NCBI GenBank assembly: GCA_041649475.1
Contig: JBAZNA010000001.1
Coordinates: forward strand, 197,022 to 261,021
Source of the DNA: Patescibacteria group bacterium
GTDB lineage: Bacteria; Patescibacteriota; Patescibacteriia; Magasanikbacterales; GWA2-37-8
Direction of reading: 5' to 3'
Length of the DNA: 64,000 nt
Under the pieces are notes generated by a model. The model made no database searches and was not told the DNA's origin. It saw only the letters and a program-made list of their open reading frames with translations. A program made the translations under genes and the position numbers. Shown piece by piece: positions 9,608 to 61,508 of the stretch (the first letter of the stretch is position 1; each line of letters starts with the position of its first letter).

Positions 9608-9994
9608 ATGATAGAAACTTCCAAAGATATTTTATACCTGGTCATCGCGTTTTGTGTTTTGTGGCTGACGGTTTTTCTCTGCTGGACGTTTTTCTACGTG
9701 GTGAAAATTTTAAAGAACACCAACCGGGTGGTTGAAGAATTTCGCTCGCGCCTGCAACTGCTAACTGAAACCATAAATTATGTGCGCGGCAAGGTGGAAA
9801 GCATTCATGCTTTGATTGGTTTAGCCGGCGGCAATGTAGCCAATGCCGTAAAAAATATCGTGAGCAAGAAAGCCAAAGAATGGGTTGATAGCGGTTCTAA
9901 AAAAATGAATACTTCAGCTAAAGACGCGGTGGACTTTGCGGTAAAAGCGACTGCAAAGGGCATGAGCAAGGTAGCAAAGAAGATTAGAAGATAA
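9608..9994 (+). CDS. hypothetical small membrane protein
   Basis: 128 aa with an N-terminal transmembrane helix and a Lys-rich C-terminus. It is preceded by an extended -10 (tgcTATAAT) and an AAGGAG ribosome-binding site, and followed by a terminator hairpin. Confidence 0.5.
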   Translation: MIETSKDILYLVIAFCVLWLTVFLCWTFFYVVKILKNTNRVVEEFRSRLQLLTETINYVRGKVESIHALIGLAGGNVANAVKNIVSKKAKEWVDSGSKKMNTSAKDAVDFAVKATAKGMSKVAKKIRR

Positions 9995-10075: not shown

Positions 10076-10149
10076 TGGTGATTATTCCTTAGGTAAGGAA
10101 GCCCGGACCATTCCGGTTCGGGTATGATGATAGAGGAAGGAGAAAAAAG

Positions 10150-10497
10150 ATGGGAATGCGCGCGAAGGACTGGGAGGCGGCCCAGGCCGTTTTCTTGAAA
10201 GAGGCCGGTGCCGACCCTGACCCCGACGATTCGTGGACCGTAGTTCGGTCGCCGAGTTTGCAGGAGCTTCTGCTGGCAAAGGAGCAGGAGTTCCCGGTTG
10301 AGCTCGAGCTCTCCGACGGCCGCAAGATGACCGTGTTCGTCGAGGATATCAAGGACCCCGACGCGCACGGCGAAGTGGAGGTGTACGTAATGTACGTCGC
10401 CAACGGCAACCGGCGCCGGCGGTACCTGCACTTCACCCCCGACGTCTACGAGCCCAGGGTCAACGTCTACCCCGAGCCCAAGGAATCCGTGGGCTGA
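10150..10497 (+). CDS. hypothetical protein, compositionally foreign GC-rich cassette A (115 aa)
   Basis: ATG preceded by a GAAGGAGAAAAAAG ribosome-binding site. Codon third positions are strongly G/C-biased, and the first 60 nt count about 63% GC against about 28-40% in neighbouring genes. Its own promoter is upstream and an intrinsic terminator is downstream. No recognisable domain. Confidence 0.6.
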   Translation: MGMRAKDWEAAQAVFLKEAGADPDPDDSWTVVRSPSLQELLLAKEQEFPVELELSDGRKMTVFVEDIKDPDAHGEVEVYVMYVANGNRRRRYLHFTPDVYEPRVNVYPEPKESVG

Positions 10498-10520
10498 CCC
10501 CACTTCCTCCCTCGTCTCAC

Positions 10521-10549
10521 GCCCAAGCATCTGCTTGGGCCTTTTTTTG
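10521..10549 (+). terminator. intrinsic terminator gcccaagcatctgcttgggc + T7
   Basis: 9-bp GC stem followed by ctttttttg. Confidence 0.7.
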
Positions 10550-15597: not shown

Positions 15598-15671
15598 TGT
15601 CAGGGGAGGGAGTCGGACCCTCGACCTTAGGGTTATGAATCCTACGCTCTTACCAACTGAGCTACCCTGAC
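15598..15671 (-). tRNA. tRNA-Met (anticodon CAT; could also be a lysidine-modified tRNA-Ile2)
   Basis: The reverse complement folds as a cloverleaf. It has a 7-bp acceptor stem GTCAGGG/CCCTGAC, a D-arm GCTC-AGTTGGTAA-GAGC, an anticodon loop TTCATAA and a T-arm GAGGG-TCCGACT-CCCTC. There is no encoded CCA. G1-C72 is paired, so it is an elongator type. Confidence 0.75.
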
Positions 15672-16834: not shown

Positions 16835-16909
16835 GGCCCCATCGTCTAGTGGTTAGGACATCTCGCTTTCAATGAGAAAACACGGGTCCGATTCCCGTTG
16901 GGGCTACCA
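16835..16909 (+). tRNA. tRNA-Glu (anticodon TTC), CCA encoded
   Basis: Cloverleaf with acceptor GGCCCCA/TGGGGCT (G1-U72 wobble), D-arm GTCT-AGTGGTTAG-GGAC, anticodon loop CTTTCAA and T-arm CGGG-TCCGATT-CCCG, followed by ACCA. Confidence 0.85.
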
Positions 16910-16913
16910 ATAC

Positions 16914-16945
16914 AAAAGATTCCGGAGAACCGGAATCTTTTGTTA
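16914..16945. terminator. bidirectional intrinsic terminator gattccggagaaccggaatc flanked by A/T runs
   Basis: Perfect 8-bp stem with aaaa upstream and tttt downstream, lying between tRNA-Glu (+) and a convergent lipoprotein gene (-). Confidence 0.65.
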
Positions 16946-29471: not shown

Positions 29472-29502
29472 ATAAAAAAAGAGCTTCCCTGGGGAGGGAA
29501 GT
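29472..29502 (-). terminator. intrinsic terminator downstream of cassette E (cttccctccccagggaag + T7)
   Basis: Reverse strand: cttccctccccagggaagctcttttttt. Confidence 0.65.
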
Positions 29503-29580
29503 TCAGTGGGGGTTGGCTCCGGTGTGATCGCCTGATGGCGAATTGGAGCACGGTAGGAAAGAGCAGGGCGGGGCGGCTGG

Positions 29581-29922
29581 CTAGCCGGCGGCGGAAGCGG
29601 CGATGGGGGCGATCTTGGGCTGGATGTCGATCACGGGGATCGGCTCGGGCAGACCGTCGAAGCGCTGGCGGAGCCAGTCGATCTCGGGCTCCGAGGCCTC
29701 GCCCATGAAGATCTCGATGTAGAACGTCCCCCTGATGAGGCCCTCGTACTTCAGCTTGAAGCCGGGGATCTCGTCGTCGAAGTCGGCCTTGTGCGGCCTG
29801 TTGACGTACCTGTTGAAGTCGTTGAGCGAGCAGTACCTGACGCTGCCGTCCACGAACTGGATCCGTACGGCCCTTGTCTGCAAGGTCGTGTCCGGGAACG
29901 TCATCAGCTTCTGGATCGGCAT
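29581..29922 (-). CDS. hypothetical protein, GC-rich cassette E (113 aa from MPIQKL)
   Basis: Start chosen at the methionine preceded by AAGGAGagggag. The ORF-track ORF extends to 29994 with an Arg-rich low-complexity N-terminus that is probably untranslated leader. The coding sequence is GC-rich, and both its 5' leader (about 105 nt) and its 3' UTR (about 90 nt) are long and GC-rich. Confidence 0.5.
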   Translation of the reverse strand: MPIQKLMTFPDTTLQTRAVRIQFVDGSVRYCSLNDFNRYVNRPHKADFDDEIPGFKLKYEGLIRGTFYIEIFMGEASEPEIDWLRQRFDGLPEPIPVIDIQPKIAPIAASAAG

Positions 29923-30037
29923 CTCCCTCTCCTTGGGACTACGAGCTCGTGTGACCATCTTGTTATGCCTCCCTTGTTTCCGTGTTGGGCCCAATGCCCC
30001 TAAACTTGTTGGCCTTGTCCAGGCCGTGATGGGCTAA

Positions 30038-30131: not shown

Positions 30132-32156
30132 ATGAATGTCAGTGAATTAGCCAGACAATTACGCGTACATCCGCAGAAACTCCTGCAAATTTTGCCCGAG
30201 TTCGGTTTTGATATTGGTGCGAAAGCAGTGAAGATTGACGACCGTGTAGCCCAACAGATTCAGCGCGATTGGCGAAAAATCAAATATATTATTGATGAAA
30301 GAGAACGCAAGGAGAAAGAAAAGCAGAAGGAACTGGAGAAAGAAGCCAGAAAAAGCACAGGCACTTCTGTGGCCATACCGCAAAAATTGACTGTCCGCGA
30401 ACTGGCTGATGCTTTGCAAATGCCGCCGACAAAACTGATAATGGAACTGATGAAAAATGGCATTCTGGCCACGCAAAATGAAAACATTGATCATGACACA
30501 GCCATGCTTATTGCCCAGGAATTTGGTTTTACCGTGACGGAAAAAACCGAAGACAACCACAAAGAAGACACCCATGTTCAGAATTTGGAAAATATTTTAA
30601 CCAGCGATGCGAGCGGTGAGAACAAAATTGCGCGTCCGCCGGTGGTGGTGGTTATGGGTCATGTTGATCATGGAAAAACAAAATTATTGGACGCGATCAG
30701 AAGCACGAACGTAGTTGATTCCGAGGCCGGAGGCATCACCCAGCATATTGGCGCCTATCAGGTTGTCTGGACCAATCCAAAAACCAAAGAAAAAACTCCG
30801 CTGACATTTATTGACACCCCGGGTCATGAGGCCTTTACGGTCATGCGCAGCCGCGGCGCCAAAGTGGCGGACATTGCCATATTGGTGGTGGCCGCCGATG
30901 ACAGCGTGAAGCCACAAACCATTGAAGCGATAAATATAATGAAGGCGGCCAAACTGTCAATCGTGGTGGCCATTAATAAAATAGATAAAGAAGGCGCTGA
31001 TCCGCAAAAAGTGCGGGTTGATTTGTCTCAACATAATATTATCTCCGAAGAATGGGGCGGCGATGTGCCGATGGTTGAGATTTCCGCCAAGCAGAAATTA
31101 AATATTGATAAATTATTGGATGTTTTACTCTTGGTTGCGGATTTGCATGCCGATGAAATAAAAGCTAACCCGGACAGATCGGCGGCCGGAACCGTGATTG
31201 AGGCCCACGTTGATAAGGGCGAGGGGCCGGTGGCCACAATCTTGGTGCAAACCGGAACTTTAAAAATCAATGATCCGTTGGTGGTAAACGGTGAAATTTA
31301 CGGAAAAGTTAAGGCCATGAGAAATTATAAAGGCGATATTTTGGAAACCGCCGGACCAAGCAACCCGGTTCGTATCCTAGGATTTAAAGTGGCCCCGCAA
31401 GTCGGAGATGTTTTGGATGTCGGCAGTTTTGAAACCGCCACTAACATAAACATAAAAGAAAAAAGATCAAAACAATCCGGAGCCGAACAAGGTTCCGCGT
31501 CCACAGTAGAGGTCACTGCCGAAGGCGAAGAGAAAAAGTTTTTGAATTTGGTGATTAAGGCGGATACTTTGGGGTCGCTTGAAGCCATCATTGGATCACT
31601 GGAAAAAATTAAGAATGACGAAGTGGGCGTGAAGGTAGTGGGGAAGGGTTTGGGCAATATTACCGCCGATGATGTGGCCAAAGCCGAAGCCGCGGGCGGA
31701 ATTATTTGCGGTTTTAATGTCGTGGCTATGCCTAACGCGCAAACCATGATTGCCGACAAAAACATCAGCTTCATGCAATACAAAATTATTTATGATTTGC
31801 TGGATTATATTAAAGAGGAGCTGCAAAAAATGTTAAATCCTGAAAAAATAATAACGGAGCTGGGCGCGGTAAAAATCATAGCTGTTTTTAGAACCGAGAA
31901 AAATTACATGATTGTTGGCGGTCGCGTAACATCCGGCAAACTTCGTAAAGATTGTTTGGTCAAGGTGATACGAAAAGGCGAAGCGGTTGGCGAGGGTAAA
32001 TTATCTCAATTACAAATTGCCAAACAGACGGTAAATGAGGTTGCTGAAGGCAATGAATGCGGAATGCAGTTTGACGGCAAATTACGACTGGAAGCTGGGG
32101 ATGTTTTGGAGGCCTATAAAGAAGAAATCAAAGAGAAAAAATTAATTTTAAATTAA
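30132..32156 (+). CDS. infB: translation initiation factor IF-2
   Basis: G domain (GHVDHGKTKLLDAIR, DTPGHEAF, NKID) followed by the beta-barrel C-terminal domains, 674 aa. Confidence 0.9.
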   Translation: MNVSELARQLRVHPQKLLQILPEFGFDIGAKAVKIDDRVAQQIQRDWRKIKYIIDERERKEKEKQKELEKEARKSTGTSVAIPQKLTVRELADALQMPPTKLIMELMKNGILATQNENIDHDTAMLIAQEFGFTVTEKTEDNHKEDTHVQNLENILTSDASGENKIARPPVVVVMGHVDHGKTKLLDAIRSTNVVDSEAGGITQHIGAYQVVWTNPKTKEKTPLTFIDTPGHEAFTVMRSRGAKVADIAILVVAADDSVKPQTIEAINIMKAAKLSIVVAINKIDKEGADPQKVRVDLSQHNIISEEWGGDVPMVEISAKQKLNIDKLLDVLLLVADLHADEIKANPDRSAAGTVIEAHVDKGEGPVATILVQTGTLKINDPLVVNGEIYGKVKAMRNYKGDILETAGPSNPVRILGFKVAPQVGDVLDVGSFETATNINIKEKRSKQSGAEQGSASTVEVTAEGEEKKFLNLVIKADTLGSLEAIIGSLEKIKNDEVGVKVVGKGLGNITADDVAKAEAAGGIICGFNVVAMPNAQTMIADKNISFMQYKIIYDLLDYIKEELQKMLNPEKIITELGAVKIIAVFRTEKNYMIVGGRVTSGKLRKDCLVKVIRKGEAVGEGKLSQLQIAKQTVNEVAEGNECGMQFDGKLRLEAGDVLEAYKEEIKEKKLILN

Positions 32157-32163
32157 TCTTCAT

Positions 32164-32487
32164 ATGGAGTACGTTTTTAATCAGGCAAATTTTAATGAGG
32201 AGGTTTTACGGTCAAAGGAGCCGGTGTTCGTGGATTTCTGGGCGCCCTGGTGCGGACCTTGCCAGACCATGGGACCGATGGTGGAAGAATTGGCCAAAGA
32301 ATTTGACGGAAAAAATATAAAAATCGGCAAATGCAATGTTGATGAAAACGGCGATATCGCCATGCAGTATAATATAATGAGCATCCCTTCATTTATTGTT
32401 TTTAAAGACGGACAGGTGGTTGATCAGATTGTCGGGGGAGTACAAAAAGAGAAGTTGAAGGAAATGATAGAAAAACAGGTGGGCTAA
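32164..32487 (+). CDS. trxA: thioredoxin
   Basis: 107 aa carrying the WAPWCGPC active-site motif. Confidence 0.85.
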   Translation: MEYVFNQANFNEEVLRSKEPVFVDFWAPWCGPCQTMGPMVEELAKEFDGKNIKIGKCNVDENGDIAMQYNIMSIPSFIVFKDGQVVDQIVGGVQKEKLKEMIEKQVG

Positions 32488-32502
32488 AACTTTTACTAAA
32501 AC

Positions 32503-32603
32503 AAAAGAGGGGCATCAGTTGTCTTTGAGCGGGTTTGAGCGCCGCAGCGCTCACCCTGAGCCTCGCGGCGAGGAAAGCGAAAAGATAACTGATGCCCCTT
32601 TTG
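32503..32603 (+). other. trxA terminator hairpin containing a nested GC-rich structured core of about 67 nt
   Basis: The outer stem gaggggcatcagtt / aactgatgcccc is flanked by aaaa and tttt. Its loop contains GC-rich sub-hairpins (tgagcgccgcagcgctca; cctcg-cgg-cgagg). It is not a tRNA: the acceptor-like stem is present but there is no D-arm or T-arm. Confidence 0.4.
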
Positions 32604-32660
32604 TTATAGTTTGATTTTTTCCATAGGATTAGGTAAAATGAATATTGGCTCTACAGTATT

Positions 32661-34979
32661 ATGCAAAAATATAATCCTAAGAAAATTGAGAAAAAATGGC
32701 AGAAGTTTTGGGAAGAAAACAAGACCTTTGAGGTTGCTGAAGAAAAAGCCAAGAATAAATTTTATGCCTTGATTGAGTTTCCGTATCCGAGCGGAGAGGG
32801 TTTGCATGTCGGCCATCCGCGGCCATTTACGGCCATGGATGTGATTGCGCGCAAAAAGAGAATGGAAGGTTTTAATGTTTTGTATCCGATCGGTTTTGAT
32901 TCATTTGGTTTGCCGACGGAAAATTATGCCATAAAGACCGGGAAAGCGCCGCAGGAGGTAACTGAAAAAAATATTGCCAATTTTACGCGCCAGTTAAAAA
33001 TGCTGGGCTACAGTTTTGATTGGTCGCGCGTGATTAATACCTCTGATCCAGAATATTATAAATGGACGCAGTGGCAATTTTTACAATTTTTTAAACACGG
33101 CTTGGCTTATAAAAAGAAAATAGCTATCAATTGGTGTCCGAAAGACAAAATCGGTCTGGCTAATGAAGAAGTGGTTGACGGCAAGTGCGAGCGGTGCGGT
33201 ACGCCGGTTGAAAAAAGGGATAAAGAGCAGTGGATGCTGGCCATCAGAAAATACGCGGATAAATTGTTGGCCGGTTTGAAGGATGTTGATTATATTGAAC
33301 GCGCAAAAATTCAACAGGAAAATTGGATTGGCCGGAGCGAAGGCGCGGAAGTGGATTTCAGTTTAAAAAAACATAAAGAAAAGATAAAAGTTTTTACCAC
33401 CCGGCCGGACACTTTGTTTGGCGCGACCTATATGGTTTTGTCGCCGGAGCATGAGTTGGTGCAGAAACTGAAACCGGAAATAAAAAATTGGAATAAAGTG
33501 GAAAAATATCTTGAAGAGGCCAAAAGAAAATCCGATCTGGAACGTACTGAATTGCAAAAAGAGAAAACTGGGGTTGAACTGCAGGGCATAAAGGCGATTA
33601 ACCCTGTTAATAATGAAGAGATTCCGGTTTGGGTGGCTGATTATGTTTTGACCAGCTATGGTACCGGCGCCATTATGGCCGTGCCGGCGCACGATGAAAG
33701 AGATAGAGAATTTGCGGAAAAGTTTAAGTTGGAAATCAGAGAGATGGTTCCCGAAAATATGGAAAAAATAATGAAATGGCTTGAAGAGAAAGGTGTTGGC
33801 AAGGCCGTTGTTAATTATAAACTTCGCGACTGGGTTTTTTCCCGACAAAGGTATTGGGGCGAGCCGATCCCATTGGTTTATTGTGAACATTGCGGCGGTT
33901 GGATTCCACTTCCCGAAGATCAGCTCCCACTAGAGCTTCCTAAAGTAAAAAAATACGAACCCACTGACACGGGCGAGTCGCCGCTCGCGGCCATGGAAAA
34001 ATGGGTGAACACCAAATGCCCAAAGTGCGGCGGTCCGGCGCGCCGGGAAACCGACACCATGCCCAATTGGGCCGGTTCCAGTTGGTATTTTTTAAGATAT
34101 TGCGATCCGCACAACGACCAAACATTTGCGGCGGCAGATAAATTGAGATATTGGATGCCGGTTGATTGGTATAACGGGGGCATGGAACACGTGGTTTTGC
34201 ATTTATTGTATTCAAGGTTTTGGAATCAGTTTTTATACGATATCGGCGAAGTACCCGCCAGCGAGCCGTATAAGAAACGCACTTCGCACGGTTTGATTTT
34301 AGCCAAAGGCGGCGAAAAAATGTCCAAATCAAAAGGCAATGTGATTAACCCGGATGAGATGGTTGAACAGTTCAGCGCCGACACCTTGCGCGCGTACATA
34401 ATGTTTATGGGTCCTTTTGATCAGGCGGTTGAGTGGGACACCAACGGCCTGGTGGGTGTGCAAAGATTTTTGGAAAAGGTTTGGCAGATGCAGGAAAAAT
34501 TAAGCGCCGAGTCATCGCCCAAACTGGTGGCTTTGCTTCATCAAACCATTGCCAAAGTTTCCGAAGACATTGACGGCATGAGATTTAACACGGCCATCGC
34601 CAAGATGATGGAACTGGTAAATGAAATGGTTGATCGTCAGGCGGTGTCAAAATCGGATTATGAAATTTTAATAAAATTATTATCACCGTTTGCTCCGCAT
34701 CTGGCCAATGAGATTTGGGAACTTTTGGGAAATAAATCCGATTTGGCTTTTGAACCATGGCCAAAATTCAATGCGGCACTGGCCAAAGACAGTGAATTTA
34801 CTTTGGCCGTGCAGGTGAACGGAAAATTGCGGGATGCAATTTTAGTTGATGCCGGAATCTCCGAAGCGGAGGCAAAACAAACCGCCTTAGCCAGCGAGAA
34901 AGTGCAAAAATGGCTGGAAGGAAAGAAACCTAAAAAAGTTATTTACGTCAAAGGCAAGTTAATTAGTATAGTTGTGTAA
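32661..34979 (+). CDS. leuS: leucine--tRNA ligase
   Basis: 772 aa carrying class I HIGH (HVGHP) and KMSKS motifs. Confidence 0.9.
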   Translation: MQKYNPKKIEKKWQKFWEENKTFEVAEEKAKNKFYALIEFPYPSGEGLHVGHPRPFTAMDVIARKKRMEGFNVLYPIGFDSFGLPTENYAIKTGKAPQEVTEKNIANFTRQLKMLGYSFDWSRVINTSDPEYYKWTQWQFLQFFKHGLAYKKKIAINWCPKDKIGLANEEVVDGKCERCGTPVEKRDKEQWMLAIRKYADKLLAGLKDVDYIERAKIQQENWIGRSEGAEVDFSLKKHKEKIKVFTTRPDTLFGATYMVLSPEHELVQKLKPEIKNWNKVEKYLEEAKRKSDLERTELQKEKTGVELQGIKAINPVNNEEIPVWVADYVLTSYGTGAIMAVPAHDERDREFAEKFKLEIREMVPENMEKIMKWLEEKGVGKAVVNYKLRDWVFSRQRYWGEPIPLVYCEHCGGWIPLPEDQLPLELPKVKKYEPTDTGESPLAAMEKWVNTKCPKCGGPARRETDTMPNWAGSSWYFLRYCDPHNDQTFAAADKLRYWMPVDWYNGGMEHVVLHLLYSRFWNQFLYDIGEVPASEPYKKRTSHGLILAKGGEKMSKSKGNVINPDEMVEQFSADTLRAYIMFMGPFDQAVEWDTNGLVGVQRFLEKVWQMQEKLSAESSPKLVALLHQTIAKVSEDIDGMRFNTAIAKMMELVNEMVDRQAVSKSDYEILIKLLSPFAPHLANEIWELLGNKSDLAFEPWPKFNAALAKDSEFTLAVQVNGKLRDAILVDAGISEAEAKQTALASEKVQKWLEGKKPKKVIYVKGKLISIVV

Positions 34980-55838: not shown

Positions 55839-56504
55839 ATGGCGACCGCAAAACAGATTCCGTTTTTGATGGGAAGGTTGGTGGAGCATCAGTTTTACTT
55901 CTGTGCTTTGTCCACCGCAAGCGCCACGTGGGCGAGCCAAAACCCGAAAGACGCCATTGCCTTGTGCGTGGCGGCGATCGAGAATCGCCAAAAGGAGCGT
56001 CAGTCCGACCCGGCGCCTTCGCCACTCCTCACCTTGGTCGGTGCCGTCGTGATCTGGCTGGCCGTGAGGTTCGTTGCCAGTGAACACCTGGTGAAGAATA
56101 CCGAGAAGAACGCGCCGGTGAAGATTTCCTACATCTTCGATAAGGTCACCGTGTGGTTCCAGGGCAAGATCGAGGAGCGGGTCGAGGGCGAGATGGCTCT
56201 GTGCTGCCATACCCTGAACTCCGACTCGGACGATAACCTCATCATCAACCAGCTCGGCGGCGAGACCAAGGCCGAGACCGCCCTTGCCGAGGTCTTTGCC
56301 TGCTTGGAGAAGCAACCCAACGGCGAGGATGGTGCGCTACTCACTAACGGCCACGCGAACATCTTCTATGTTCGCAACACCGAAGGTGTGTTGTGCGTGA
56401 TCCAAGTGATCTGGCGCGGTGACGGTTGGACCTTCTACACCCGTTCGGTCGGTTCTCTGGACACATGTACCGAGGGCCGCCGGGTGTTCTCCCGCGCCGC
56501 ATAG
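55839..56504 (+). CDS. hypothetical protein, GC-rich cassette G (221 aa)
   Basis: GC-rich coding sequence with its own promoter and ribosome-binding site, followed by an intrinsic terminator. No recognisable domain. There is one hydrophobic segment (LLTLVGAVVIWLAV). Confidence 0.55.
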   Translation: MATAKQIPFLMGRLVEHQFYFCALSTASATWASQNPKDAIALCVAAIENRQKERQSDPAPSPLLTLVGAVVIWLAVRFVASEHLVKNTEKNAPVKISYIFDKVTVWFQGKIEERVEGEMALCCHTLNSDSDDNLIINQLGGETKAETALAEVFACLEKQPNGEDGALLTNGHANIFYVRNTEGVLCVIQVIWRGDGWTFYTRSVGSLDTCTEGRRVFSRAA

Positions 56505-56523
56505 TTTGTTCCTTCCTTCCAAG

Positions 56524-56558
56524 CGCCCCGCCTGTCAGATGGTGGGGCATTTTTTTAT
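56524..56558 (+). terminator. intrinsic terminator gccccgcctgtcagatggtggggc + T8
   Basis: 5-bp GC stem, a long loop and catttttttat. Confidence 0.6.
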
Positions 56559-56594: not shown

Positions 56595-56600
56595 TAACCC

Positions 56601-56994
56601 ATTCATAGCGGATGATCGAGCCGACTTAGTCGGCTAGGAAAGTCCGAACACCCAAGATGGCAGTGGGTAACGCCCACCGCTACGGTGGCAACGCCGTGGT
56701 TGGGAAAGTGGCACAGAGACAATTCTAACCCCGACAAGCTCGGGGTAAAAGGTGAAAAGTGTATGGGGGATTTGGTTCTCGAGACCAAAGCTACTATACT
56801 CGGCTGATAGCAATATCAGTTCGTGCTAAACCCTGCCTGGTGCAAGAGCAGCGTTTCGCGGCGCAAAACCGCGGTTCGAAAAGTTCGCTCGCTAGAACGC
56901 GTTAGCAATAACGCGTCCAGATAAATGATCGTCACCTCGCCCCATTTTTAAACAAAATGGTGCGGAGCACAAAATTCGGCTTATAGCTATGAAT
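56601..56994 (+). ncRNA. rnpB: RNase P RNA (bacterial type A)
   Basis: P1 pairing ttcatagc/gctatgaa. P2 gagccga...tcggctt and a P3 hairpin ccgacttagtcgg. P4 5' strand AGGAAAGTCCG and 3' strand ACAAAATTCGGCTTA. Conserved GGGTAACGCC, GTGGCACAGAGACAAT and GGTAAAAGGTGAAAAGTG blocks match the E. coli M1 RNA pattern. Confidence 0.8.
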
Positions 56995-56995
56995 A

Positions 56996-57026
56996 AAAAA
57001 GACGACCCGCAAGGGCCGTCTTTTAA
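56996..57026. terminator. bidirectional intrinsic terminator (gacgacccgcaagggccgtc) flanked by A6 and T4
   Basis: aaaaaagacgacccgcaagggccgtctttt. It ends rnpB (+) and the convergent 57040-58578 gene (-). Confidence 0.65.
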
Positions 57027-61426: not shown

Positions 61427-61508
61427 TGGGCGAGGAGGGATTTGAACCCTCATGACCGAAGTCATACGCTTCTGAGACGTACGCGTATACCAATTCCGCC
61501 ACTCGCCC
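61427..61508 (-). tRNA. tRNA-Leu (anticodon CAG), class II with long variable arm
   Basis: The reverse complement has acceptor GGGCGAG/CTCGCCC, anticodon loop CTCAGAA, a variable-arm hairpin tgacttcggtca and T-arm GAGGG-TTCAAAT-CCCTC. There is no encoded CCA. Confidence 0.8.

What the first reader, a model, noticed from the sequence alone, without database searches (positions are those of the whole stretch)
32503..32603. GC-rich structured core of about 67 nt nested inside the loop of the trxA terminator
trxA is followed by what looks like an ordinary intrinsic terminator (A-tract, stem gaggggcatcagtt / aactgatgcccc, T-tract). The stem is split by a 67-nt core that is GC-rich and unlike the host. 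The core itself forms two strong sub-hairpins (tgagcgccgcagcgctca and cctcg-cgg-cgagg). It has no ATG and no tRNA-like arms. It looks like a small element inserted into a pre-existing terminator loop, or a bespoke structured RNA such as a small RNA, an RNA thermometer or a leader for the downstream leuS. It shares the foreign-GC character of the seven protein cassettes, so it may be a non-coding member of the same set.
Basis: seen in the sequence. Interest (0 to 1): 0.55.

Follow-up and report, generated by a model that had tools for sequence, protein, structure and literature searches.

The report
Small palindromic repeat inside trxA terminator
The GC-rich knot inside the hairpin after trxA is one copy of a previously undescribed small repeated DNA element of Patescibacteria that sits at the tip of long perfect hairpins, flips in place and even occurs in-frame inside an essential gene; here it most likely rides in, and still serves as, the trxA transcription terminator.

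Summary
Window 32505-32602 is a hairpin with 22-nt arms and a 54-nt branched GC-rich tip. It is the most stable local fold in the 64 kb (z = -8.9). It matches no Rfam family and is not a leuS leader, because a conserved leuS promoter lies downstream of it.

It is not specific to this locus. A covariance model finds 17 copies of the same ~55-nt core in low-GC Patescibacteria-like contigs, next to unrelated housekeeping genes. Each copy sits on different, mutually complementary arms. One copy lies in-frame inside Elp3, and in one lineage that copy is inverted.

Orientation relative to transcription is 6:6, and arm mismatches show no bias towards the transcribed RNA strand. Close trxA relatives have a plain terminator, the same core inverted, or other cores (at least two further families).

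Best reading (0.58): a new family of RPE/MITE-like palindromic elements. This copy sits at the top of, and probably functions as, the bidirectional trxA terminator.

The mobilising mechanism is unknown. No target duplication or transposase was seen, and the arms appear to grow by inverted copying of the flanks. In Elp3 orthologues the core is far better conserved than the surrounding gene (53/56 vs 70%). That leaves open a host-level or dedicated-machinery role.

Only one copy was found in the window.

The parts
32164..32487 (+). trxA (thioredoxin, 107 aa), the gene whose 3' end the hairpin follows
   Evidence: ORF. It is 100% identical to P0001, 'thioredoxin, Patescibacteria group bacterium', on a 963,177-bp contig. 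Pfam Thioredoxin.
32495..32612 (.). Whole palindrome: A-tract, long stem P1, branched tip, T-tract. It fills the gap between the trxA stop codon and the leuS promoter.
   Evidence: MFE -64.2 kcal/mol (z = -8.9) on + and -59.0 (z = -8.1) on -. Most stable 118-nt fold in the window.
32505..32526 (+). 5' arm of P1. The outer part (32507-32516, GAGGGGCATC) is specific to this locus and terminator-like. The inner part (32517-32526, AGTTGTCTTT) resembles the inner arms of other copies.
   Evidence: I1. The outer GGGGCA is shared with the plain terminator of L001. The inner arm is shared with L012 and L079:406-485.
32527..32580 (-). Family-1 core, 54 nt. On the - strand it reads TCGCTTTCCTCGCCGCGAGGCTCAGGGTGAGCGCTGCGGCGCTCAAACCCGCTC. 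It forms a three-way junction with hairpin A, hairpin B and a 2-bp GC/GC closing helix.
   Evidence: Covariance model R1 hits window 32515-32592 (-) at 93 bits, E = 6e-27. The core is 93% identical to L077 and 86% to L079:406.
32536..32553 (.). Hairpin B (TGAGCGC-CGCA-GCGCTCA), extended by GGG 32531-33 / CCC 32554-56. This is the stem that covaries between copies.
   Evidence: 5 of 11 pairs show changes on both sides across the 17 copies.
32561..32573 (.). Hairpin A (CCTCG-CGG-CGAGG). Its sequence is nearly invariant between copies.
   Evidence: Part of this invariance was forced by the search pattern. Copies found by other routes (L069:65, L079) vary slightly.
32581..32602 (+). 3' arm of P1 (AAAGATAACTGATGCCCCTTTT). 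It is positionally orthologous to the 3' arm of L012 and to a relic arm in L001.
32599..32605 (+). T-tract (TTTTGTT) directly after the GC-rich stem base. The mirror-image tract on the - strand reads TCTTTTGTTTT. Together they give the outline of a bidirectional intrinsic terminator.
   Evidence: Sequence. Same style as the palindromic terminator at 16912-16943 (I6).
32611..32639 (+). leuS promoter-like site (TTGATT, 17 nt, TAAAAT), conserved in relatives. It lies downstream of the hairpin, so the hairpin is not in the leuS leader.
   Evidence: Conserved in L001, L011, L012 and L082 while the hairpin region is not.
32661..34979 (+). leuS (772 aa), the downstream gene

Best explanation
The core at 32527-32580, together with its ~10-bp inner arms, is one copy of a dispersed, non-coding, palindromic repeat family ('family 1') found in a clade of Patescibacteria. 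Functionally it is comparable to Rickettsia palindromic elements, Correia/nemis and other MITE-like repeats.

The unit is a ~55-nt GC-rich three-way junction bounded by T(n) and A(n). It always sits at the apex of a long, near-perfect, locus-specific inverted repeat.

Steps I infer about how it behaves:
- It spreads at the DNA level by an unidentified mechanism.
- Its arms are kept and extended as perfect palindromes by arm-to-arm templated copying (replication template switching), which copies flanking sequence in inverted orientation.
- The same process, or recombination between the arms, flips the core in place.

In this window the copy occupies the top of the trxA 3' hairpin. The GC-rich stem base (GGGGC/GCCCC) plus the flanking A- and T-tracts keep the outline of a bidirectional intrinsic terminator. 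The composite hairpin therefore most likely still terminates trxA transcription upstream of the separate leuS promoter, and the core is a passenger.

Shown: the structure, the dispersal, the presence/absence and orientation polymorphism, the in-frame copy, and the covariation. Inferred: mobility as the cause of the dispersal, the template-switch origin of the arms, and terminator activity.
For: (1) Dispersal. Pattern scan and model R1 find 17 distinct copies (68-102 bits) in low-GC contigs. They lie next to unrelated genes: rmlB/rmlD, topA, uvrC, an rRNA methyltransferase, prfA, scpA, yceG/queA, a sigma70/HTH divergent spacer, and Elp3.

(2) The arms differ at every locus yet are complementary. 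They are 14-28 bp, several of them perfect: 27/27, 20/20 and 19/19.

(3) Polymorphism at the trxA locus among relatives:
- L001 (TrxA 97%), L011 (92%) and L082 (88%) have plain terminators.
- L012 (88%) has the core inverted.
- L013/L083 and L014 have other cores.

(4) The window's core is 93% identical to the queA-locus copy in L077 but only 79% identical to the L012 copy at the same trxA locus.

(5) There is an in-frame 33-aa insertion in Elp3 relative to solved structures and relative to the window genome's own Elp3. Four of the six reading frames of the core are open.

(6) P0122 carries the Elp3 copy inverted and still in frame.

(7) Orientation relative to transcription is 6:6 (plus later copies). 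Arm mismatches are G.U versus A.C 15:7 (9:6 without one over-extended case), so the arms behave as DNA palindromes and show no selection on one RNA strand.

(8) Structure is maintained: 95.5% of cells are paired, 17 of 30 pairs show changes on both sides, and 0 of 500 shuffles reach this.

(9) At least two further families have the same architecture. Family 2 is in L013, L083 and L061. Family 4 occurs twice in L084, with cores 95% identical and arms unrelated.

(10) Arms are copied from flanks. The palindrome of L084 copy 1 runs 17 nt into the native, conserved 3' end of infB. The window's 3' outer arm has been remade to match its 5' flank, compared with L001 and L012.

(11) Terminator outline and the separate leuS promoter.

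(12) No Rfam family matches any copy.
Against: - There is no direct-repeat target duplication, no well-defined conserved terminal inverted repeat beyond about 10 weakly conserved bp, and no transposase or other candidate mobilising gene in the loci seen.
- Only one copy was found in the 64-kb window plus 8.8 kb of what appears to be the same genome. Multi-copy status in the source genome itself is therefore not shown.
- In Elp3 orthologues the core is 53/56 identical while the surrounding CDS is 69.7% identical (p = 4e-6). Paralogues on one contig are less alike (78%) than these orthologues. A decaying selfish insert should not be kept like that. This points to constraint on each copy, or to repeated re-homing.
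- L001 keeps a relic 3' arm, so at this locus loss and rearrangement are at least as likely as recent gain.
- Terminator activity of a hairpin with a 54-nt branched tip is untested.
Confidence: 0.58

Rival explanations
1. A host-serving (domesticated) structured DNA or RNA module, in the way REP/BIME elements serve E. coli. In this reading the conserved core is a binding or processing site for a cellular protein (nucleoid protein, topoisomerase, recombinase, RNase). It has been spread through the genome and is kept by selection at each site. At trxA it would double as a terminator or mRNA-end protector.
For: - The core is conserved far above the surrounding coding sequence in Elp3 orthologues (53/56 vs 69.7%).
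- Orthologous copies are more alike than paralogous ones.
- Junction nucleotides are conserved, stems covary and loops vary.
- The core is retained in either orientation, which fits recognition of double-stranded or cruciform DNA.
- Arms are kept palindromic even inside a gene.
Against: - Closest relatives do without it at the trxA locus, and the window genome's own Elp3 lacks it.
- Several unrelated core families occupy the same kind of site.
- The family is absent from all 185,579 species-representative genomes at the pattern used, so any function is clade-specific and dispensable.
- No candidate binding protein was identified.
Confidence: 0.2
2. An RNA-level element. In this reading the long perfect P1 is an RNase III (or similar) processing site, like rRNA intervening sequences or Correia hairpins. 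It would serve to uncouple or destabilise neighbouring cistrons, and the core would aid folding.
For: - P1 stems of 20-28 bp are in the size range of RNase III substrates.
- Most copies lie between co-directional genes.
- Correia elements are cut by RNase III at their inverted repeats (PMC10969869).
Against: - One copy lies inside the essential Elp3 coding sequence, where cleavage would destroy the mRNA.
- One copy lies in a divergent promoter spacer.
- There is no excess of G.U over A.C on the transcribed strand.
- The core sequence is conserved in both orientations.
Confidence: 0.08
3. An elaborate trxA terminator that grew in place by template switching, with no mobility. The resemblance to other loci would be convergence.
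For: - Template switching can create and lengthen hairpins (PMC8794818, PMC13100816).
- The outer arms at trxA do look remodelled in place.
Against: Cores are 79-98% identical over ~55 nt at more than 12 unrelated loci and in different organisms, including a coding sequence. Convergence cannot explain that.
Confidence: 0.04
4. A locus-specific cis-regulatory or small RNA: a leuS leader or T-box, an RNA thermometer, or a trxA 3'UTR sRNA.
For: The element is strongly structured, GC-rich and intergenic.
Against: - The conserved leuS promoter lies downstream of the hairpin.
- No Rfam hit even at E <= 10.
- The element is absent or replaced in the closest relatives.
- It is inverted in L012.
- It is dispersed to unrelated loci.
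Confidence: 0.03

Closest known systems
Rickettsia palindromic elements (RPE)
   Same: - Short palindromic repeats in a small, AT-rich genome.
- Several families.
- Found in intergenic regions and also inserted in-frame in unrelated housekeeping genes, so that they are translated as extra peptide loops (review PMC10969869). Here this is the Elp3 insertion, and four of the six frames are open.
- The mobilising enzyme is unknown.
   Different: - RPEs are ~100-150 bp, and the whole palindrome is conserved between copies. Here only a ~55-nt tip (plus ~10 weakly conserved bp) is conserved, and the 10-20-bp outer arms are unique to each site.
- No sequence similarity to RPEs was tested (no RPE model was available).
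- The host phylum differs.
- In-place inversion was seen here.
Correia / nemis elements of Neisseria
   Same: - A small non-coding repeat whose inverted repeats fold into a long hairpin in mRNA.
- Can sit at gene ends.
- Reported to invert in place and to be cut by RNase III (PMC10969869).
   Different: Correia elements have conserved 26-bp terminal repeats, a TA target duplication, internal promoters and an IHF site. None of these was found here.
[quoted passage not shown]
   Same: - A repeat that looks like, and may act as, a terminator.
- In the window copy, a GC-rich stem base followed by a T-tract directly after a gene.
   Different: - The apical part is a 54-nt branched structure in place of a 3-8-nt loop. 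The terminator scanner therefore does not call it.
- Only about 4-5 of the 17 copies have flanking T-tracts, so being a terminator is not a property of the family.
REP / BIME / REPIN elements with RAYT transposases
   Same: Dispersed extragenic palindromes, often at 3' ends, in both orientations, and possibly useful to the host (PMC3333891).
   Different: REPs conserve the stem and vary the loop. Here it is the reverse. No GTAG-type 5' motif or RAYT gene was seen, and an intragenic in-frame copy exists.
Mitochondrial GC clusters (yeast) and double-hairpin elements (Allomyces). This comparison comes from my own knowledge and was not checked against papers here.
   Same: Short GC-rich, hairpin-forming mobile sequences scattered through an AT-rich compact genome. 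They occur in spacers and occasionally inside protein and rRNA genes. The double-hairpin core is similar.
   Different: The host is organellar. Long locus-specific perfect arms are not a described feature. No homology is implied.

Membership tests
Intrinsic (Rho-independent) terminator | GC-rich stem immediately followed by a U/T-tract, at the 3' end of a transcription unit | tested here: met
   GGGGC.../...GCCCC followed by TTTTGTT, starting 8-20 nt after the trxA stop codon and upstream of the leuS promoter.
Intrinsic (Rho-independent) terminator | Short apical loop (about 3-8 nt) and a stem of about 5-14 bp | tested here: not met
   The stem is 22+ bp and the tip is a 54-nt three-way junction. 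The consensus scanner did not report it.
Intrinsic (Rho-independent) terminator | Transcripts end in the T-tract | not testable with these tools
   Needs 3'-end mapping or an in vitro termination assay.
MITE (miniature inverted-repeat transposable element) | Many copies at unrelated sites | tested here: met
   17 copies at more than 12 unrelated loci in metagenomic contigs, up to two family-1 copies per contig. In the source genome only one copy was seen in 64 + 8.8 kb.
MITE (miniature inverted-repeat transposable element) | Terminal inverted repeats conserved between copies | tested here: inconclusive
   Only about 10 inner bp are loosely conserved (RTTRTNTTT / AAANAYAAY). The outer arms are unrelated between loci.
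MITE (miniature inverted-repeat transposable element) | Direct target-site duplication | tested here: not met
   Flanks are inverted repeats, not direct repeats. A TA next to the inner arms is present in some copies and absent in others.
MITE (miniature inverted-repeat transposable element) | A parent insertion sequence with matching ends | not tested
   No transposase appears in the loci with gene calls. Whole genomes could not be scanned.
Rickettsia palindromic element-like repeats | Palindromic repeat found in-frame inside unrelated protein genes | tested here: met
   One gene (Elp3), in four protein clusters and in two orientations. Only one gene is known so far.
Rickettsia palindromic element-like repeats | Sequence homology to RPE families | not tested
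   No RPE models or sequences were available in the tools.
REP/REPIN | Conserved palindromic stem with a variable loop, and an associated RAYT gene | tested here: not met
   The tip is conserved and the stems vary. No RAYT gene was seen in the gene calls.
Integron attC site | R'' RYYYAAC ... R' GTTRRRY at the outer ends, at cassette boundaries next to an integrase | tested here: not met
   The arms read AGTTRTC...GAYAACT, i.e. GTT at the 5' end and AAC at the 3' end, which is the reverse order, and the purine/pyrimidine pattern fails. The context is conserved infB-trxA-leuS synteny.
Any Rfam family (T-box, riboswitches, self-cleaving ribozymes, sRNAs, tRNA) | Covariance-model score at or near the family threshold | tested here: not met
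   No hit at the gathering threshold in the window. At E <= 10 only noise-level hits appeared around the site (miRNA, scaRNA and lncRNA families). No hit at E <= 0.1 in ten related loci.

The most novel reading that the evidence does not exclude
These are a new class of 'hairpin-apex' elements. A ~55-nt GC-rich three-way-junction core, in several families, homes to or builds perfect palindromes by inverted copying of its flanks. It flips or is replaced in place, and it is kept almost invariant even inside an essential gene. That would imply a dedicated, still unknown DNA-structure-specific machinery or a host function in Patescibacteria. It would be neither a classical cut-and-paste MITE nor a simple decaying insert.
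Probability: 0.25. Interest if true: 0.8.

Novelty: new variant of a known kind. Interest (0 to 1): 0.62.

Why it matters
- Patescibacteria (CPR) have tiny, streamlined genomes. I found no report of MITE- or RPE-like repeats in them.
- A family of structured repeats that colonises terminators, promoters and even an essential tRNA-modification enzyme shows that these genomes carry active or recently active small selfish or structural DNA.
- The architecture gives a natural system for studying how replication template switching builds and maintains hairpins. That architecture is a conserved tip, locus-specific perfect arms, flipping in place, and arms that co-evolve inside a coding sequence.
- It also shows how terminators can be remodelled.
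- For annotation: these elements create spurious small ORFs (for example, the 64-aa call across the copy in L079) and odd insertions in proteins. A covariance model would mask them.

Tried and rejected
- **Rfam.** I scanned the whole window at the gathering threshold, the site at E <= 10, and ten related loci at E <= 0.1. Nothing relevant came up. T-box, thermometer, ribozyme and tRNA readings are dropped.
- **Hammerhead, by eye.** CUGAG-CC...GAAAG does not fit the CUGANGA/GAAA core.
- **Second copies in the window.** I searched for the stem, either sub-hairpin or the inner arm. There are none, and there is no enrichment.
- **Genome-contig scan.** The pattern TCGCCGCGAGGC N20-30 AACCCGCTC gave 23 hits, all in high-GC taxa and none with the hairpin context.
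- **Viral contigs.** Two patterns gave one chance match in a 61%-GC contig and otherwise nothing.
- **Protein search with concatenated core-encoded peptides**, to find more in-frame copies. The word index returned 4 candidates and none scored. The search was wasted. Fuzzy peptide matching in the 240 proteins already held worked instead.
- **'Empty' palindromes.** I looked for inner arms without a core, and for a TTTCGCTCAAA junction. None exists in the window or loci ([syntax error], 88, 89).
- **Empty orthologous sites.** I looked in the window for the other copies' flanking genes. None of those genes is in the window.
- **Target-site duplication.** Not consistent between copies.
- **RNA-strand test** (G.U versus A.C on the transcribed strand). 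No clear bias.
- **attC reading.** Rejected on the consensus and on the context.
- **Link to GC-rich hypothetical ORFs.** No shared sequence and no Pfam hit, and their 'structure' is only a GC-content effect (z = -2.7).

Full report
**What is at the site**

The window comes from a Patescibacteria MAG. TrxA is 100% identical to P0001, 'Patescibacteria group bacterium', on a 963,177-bp contig, and an ENA contig is identical over 20 kb. The gene order is infB (30132-32156), trxA (32164-32487), a 173-nt spacer, leuS (32661-34979), then a ComEC-like gene.

The spacer starts with a long palindrome:
- An A-tract.
- A 5' arm at 32505-32526 and a 3' arm at 32581-32602 (22 nt, 91% complementary).
- A T-tract, TTTTGTT.
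- Between the arms, 54 nt (32527-32580) that fold into a three-way junction. It contains TGAGCGC-CGCA-GCGCTCA (extended by GGG/CCC), CCTCG-CGG-CGAGG, and a 2-bp GC/GC closing helix.

The fold is far beyond chance. MFE is -64.2 kcal/mol with z = -8.9 on the + strand and -59.0 with z = -8.1 on the - strand. It is the most stable 118-nt fold among 7,986 windows across the 64 kb.

The stem is longer, so the tip is 54 nt and not 67. The GC content (61%) is unremarkable: 3.5% of 67-nt windows reach it, and the trxA and leuS motif regions have the same GC.

**What it is not**

- No Rfam family matches at the gathering threshold or at E <= 10, and none matches in ten related loci.
- It is not a leuS leader. 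A promoter-like TTGATT-17-TAAAAT at 32611-32639 lies between the hairpin and leuS. That promoter is conserved in relatives whose hairpin region is completely different.
- Neither the stem nor either sub-hairpin has a second copy in the window.

**The trxA locus in relatives**

I fetched contigs that encode the closest TrxA proteins.

| Locus | TrxA identity | What follows trxA |
|---|---|---|
| L001-L010 | 97% | Plain terminator GGGGCAGAA-GTCA-TTCTGCCCC-TTTT on the same GGGGCA/TGCCCC base as the window, no core. Five nt later comes AAAGACAACTTATCTC-TTTTTT, which aligns with the 3' arms of the window and L012 and so is a relic arm. |
| L011 | 92% | Different plain terminator |
| L082 | 88% | Different plain terminator |
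| L012 | 88% | The same core in the opposite orientation, on arms whose inner 9 bp (AGTTGTCTT) match the window and whose outer part differs |
| L013 | 87% | Long hairpin with another core |
| L083 | 85% | Same core type as L013 |
| L014 | 84% | Long hairpin with a third core |
| L084 | 80% | Two copies of a fourth core, one on each side of trxA |

The site is therefore a hot spot for hairpins with GC-rich tips, and it is polymorphic for presence, orientation and family.

**Dispersal**

A metagenome scan with a 19-base pattern shared by the window and L012 returned 39 stretches. About 15 of them are true copies in low-GC contigs. The rest are chance matches in high-GC DNA.

I built a covariance model from nine copies (R1). 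It finds 17 distinct copies at 68-102 bits, including three that the pattern had missed. It finds only the one copy in the window.

The neighbouring genes are unrelated housekeeping genes:
- rmlB/rmlD
- topA and a cation ATPase (convergent)
- uvrC
- an rRNA methyltransferase
- prfA
- scpA
- yceG/queA
- a sigma-70/HTH divergent spacer
- Elp3

Elp3 and TrxA homologues of these contigs are named Patescibacteria or Magasanikbacteria where a name exists. None of the 185,579 species-representative genomes has the 21-base core pattern outside high-GC chance hits. The family therefore seems confined to a narrow, poorly represented clade.

**Architecture of the family**

In all copies, about 55 nt are conserved: TCGCTTTCCTCGCCGCGAGGCTCRGGG(A)TG-stem-loop-stem-CA(T)AACCCGCTC. 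The stretch is bounded by T(3+) on one side and A(3+) on the other. About ten further bp of the arms are loosely similar (RTTRTNTTT).

Beyond that, the arms are unrelated between loci yet complementary within each locus. They are 14-28 bp, several of them perfect (27/27, 20/20, 19/19).

On the model-based alignment, 95.5% of cells pair. 17 of 30 pairs have changes on both sides (12 of 14 in P1, 5 of 11 in hairpin B). No shuffle out of 500, and no slid register, comes close. Part of the invariance of hairpin A and the 5' junction was forced by my search pattern.

**DNA or RNA?**

- The consensus strand is sense to the flanking genes at six independent loci and antisense at six (plus later copies).
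- Arm mismatches are G.U on the transcribed strand 15 times and A.C 7 times. Without one over-extended case the count is 9:6.
- Most arms are pure Watson-Crick.
- One copy lies in a divergent promoter spacer and one lies inside a gene.

This is the behaviour of a DNA palindrome, not of an RNA selected on one strand.

**The in-frame copy**

In L044, L061, L062 and L079 a copy lies inside the Elp3 gene and is read through as 33 extra residues (...RLPSAD-FSLSSPRGSGMAAAAAITRSK-AADGRL...). These residues replace two residues of the solved archaeal Elp3 structures, in a variable linker. The window genome's own Elp3 (P0125) lacks them.

Four of the six frames of the core are open.

P0122 is 86% identical to P0121. 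It has the insert at the same place but encodes FERVMAAAAAIPEPRGEESEK, which is exactly the reverse-strand frame of the core. The core has therefore been inverted, or replaced, in place and is still in frame.

Between L044 and L079 (CDS 69.7% identical):
- The 20-bp arms are 55-70% identical, yet they stay palindromic in each lineage (17/20 and 20/20).
- The core is 53/56 identical (p = 4e-6), and two of the three differences form a compensatory pair.
- Paralogues on the same contig are less alike (L079a vs L079b, 78%) than these orthologues.

At trxA the pattern is the opposite. The window's core is 93% identical to the queA-locus copy of L077 but only 79% identical to L012.

**Other families**

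- Family 2 (TCGCTG.GTATGCGCA...CAAGCGTACTCGCTTC, inner arms GACTWTTTGT) follows trxA in L013 and L083. It also lies between an ORF and a tRNA gene in L061, a contig that carries two family-1 copies as well.
- Family 4 occurs twice in L084, with cores 95% identical, unrelated arms, and one perfect 23-bp pair.

All families share the layout: unique arm, T-run, GC-rich branched core, A-run, unique arm.

**Where the arms come from**

Pre-existing 20-30-bp perfect palindromes at every site, including a coding sequence, are implausible. Three observations point instead to inverted copying of flanks:
1. The palindrome of L084 copy 1 continues 17 nt (12/17 complementary) into the native 3' end of infB. 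The encoded tail KEKKLVLS* matches KEKKLILN* in the window.
2. At trxA the window's 3' outer arm (TGATGCCCC) differs from the orthologous sequence in L001 and L012 (TTATC(T)C) exactly so as to complement its own 5' flank. L001 has made a new short hairpin from the same 5' flank.
3. Arms co-evolve inside Elp3.

Replication template switching between inverted-repeat arms is known to homogenise and lengthen them, and to create compensatory changes in one step (PMC8794818, PMC13100816). It can also invert the spacer. I regard this as the likely mechanism, but it is inference.

**How the window copy most likely works**

The outermost part (ACAAAAG-AGGGGC...GCCCC-TTTTGT) has the same style as other palindromic terminators in this genome, for example 16912-16943. 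It sits between the trxA stop codon and the leuS promoter.

I therefore take the composite hairpin to be the bidirectional trxA terminator, with the family-1 element in its apex as a passenger. Termination, and possible RNase III cleavage of the 22-bp stem, are untested.

**Comparison with known systems**

The best functional analogues are:
- Rickettsia palindromic elements (in-frame copies, several families).
- Correia/nemis (hairpin in mRNA, inversion, RNase III).
- SPRITE (a terminator-like repeat).

These three are from PMC10969869. REP/BIME elements are a further analogue. From my own knowledge, mitochondrial GC clusters and double-hairpin elements are also comparable.

It fails several MITE criteria. 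There is no direct target duplication, and no parent insertion sequence has been identified. Conserved long terminal repeats could not be established, because only about 10 inner bp are loosely conserved. It is the inverse of REPs, since the tip is conserved and the stems vary.

I found no paper on such repeats in Patescibacteria.

**Verdict**

The sRNA, leader and 'foreign cassette' ideas are not supported.
- It is a new family, with an unusual architecture, of a known general kind.
- The main open points are the mobilising mechanism, the copy number in the source genome, and why the core is so well conserved at fixed sites.

Noticed in passing
L044 2319-2398; L061 3429-3508; L079 10586-10665; proteins P0121, P0122, P0123: A family-1 copy is translated in-frame as a 33-aa insert in the radical-SAM/GNAT tRNA-modification enzyme Elp3. 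In P0122 the insert is encoded by the opposite strand of the core, so it is inverted in place. The core is 53/56 identical between orthologues whose CDS is 70% identical.
   Followed up: yes
L084 9828-9938 and 10330-10436 (GCA_004321885.1, SCQK01000007.1): Two copies of a different GC-rich core ('family 4', ~62 nt, three-way junction) flank trxA. The cores are 95% identical and the arms are unrelated. The palindrome of the first copy runs 17 nt into the conserved 3' end of infB.
   Followed up: partly
L013 2351-2424; L083 1078-1104 (cut by contig end); L061 ~9750-9850: 'Family 2' core (TCGCTG.GTATGCGCA...CAAGCGTACTCGCTTC) with the same layout. It follows trxA in two organisms. In a contig that also has two family-1 copies, it lies between an ORF and a tRNA gene.
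   Followed up: partly
L014 1903-2030: A third kind of long hairpin after trxA, with 23-bp arms and a ~72-nt less GC-rich nested tip. This is the only example seen, and it has no Rfam hit.
   Followed up: no
L001 1479-1500 (and L002-L010): Relic of the 3' arm (AAAGACAACTTATCTC-TTTTTT) just after a plain trxA terminator. It shows that the closest relative lost the core and 5' arm and did not simply never have them.
   Followed up: yes
L011 2244-2522 (-): In one relative (TrxA 92%) an extra 92-aa ORF with no Pfam hit lies on the minus strand between trxA and the leuS promoter.
   Followed up: no
L079 493-517, 574-599, 675-700: Three copies of a 25-26-nt palindrome (ATTTGTATA-N8-TATACAAAT) upstream of an HTH-protein gene, which look like operators. 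The 3' arm of the neighbouring family-1 copy overlaps the first one. A 64-aa gene call (328-522) across that copy is probably spurious.
   Followed up: partly
L077 988-1027 and 6607-6639; window 16912-16943: Perfect palindromic A-run/stem/T-run terminators with almost no loop. In L077 nearly the same stem (one mismatch; GTCCCGGTT/AACCGGGAC) is used at two sites, so it is possibly another small repeat.
   Followed up: no
window 29480-29930, 10145-10544, 55900-56550: Strongly GC-rich stretches (up to 0.72-0.76) inside hypothetical ORFs with no Pfam match. The apparent fold of 29569-29686 is mostly a GC-content effect (z = -2.7). They share no sequence with the hairpin.
   Followed up: partly
window 56600-56999 (+); 15598-15671 (-); 16835-16906 (+); 61427-61508 (-): RNase P RNA (class A, 175 bits) and three tRNA genes are the only Rfam matches in the window.
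   Followed up: no
Elp3 homologues P0121-P0240: Lengths range from 511 to 638 aa, with variation in the same linker after CFEACN. P0123 has a further 12-aa insert whose DNA contains another small palindrome (ATTGG...CCAAT). The linker may be a general landing site for insertions.
   Followed up: no
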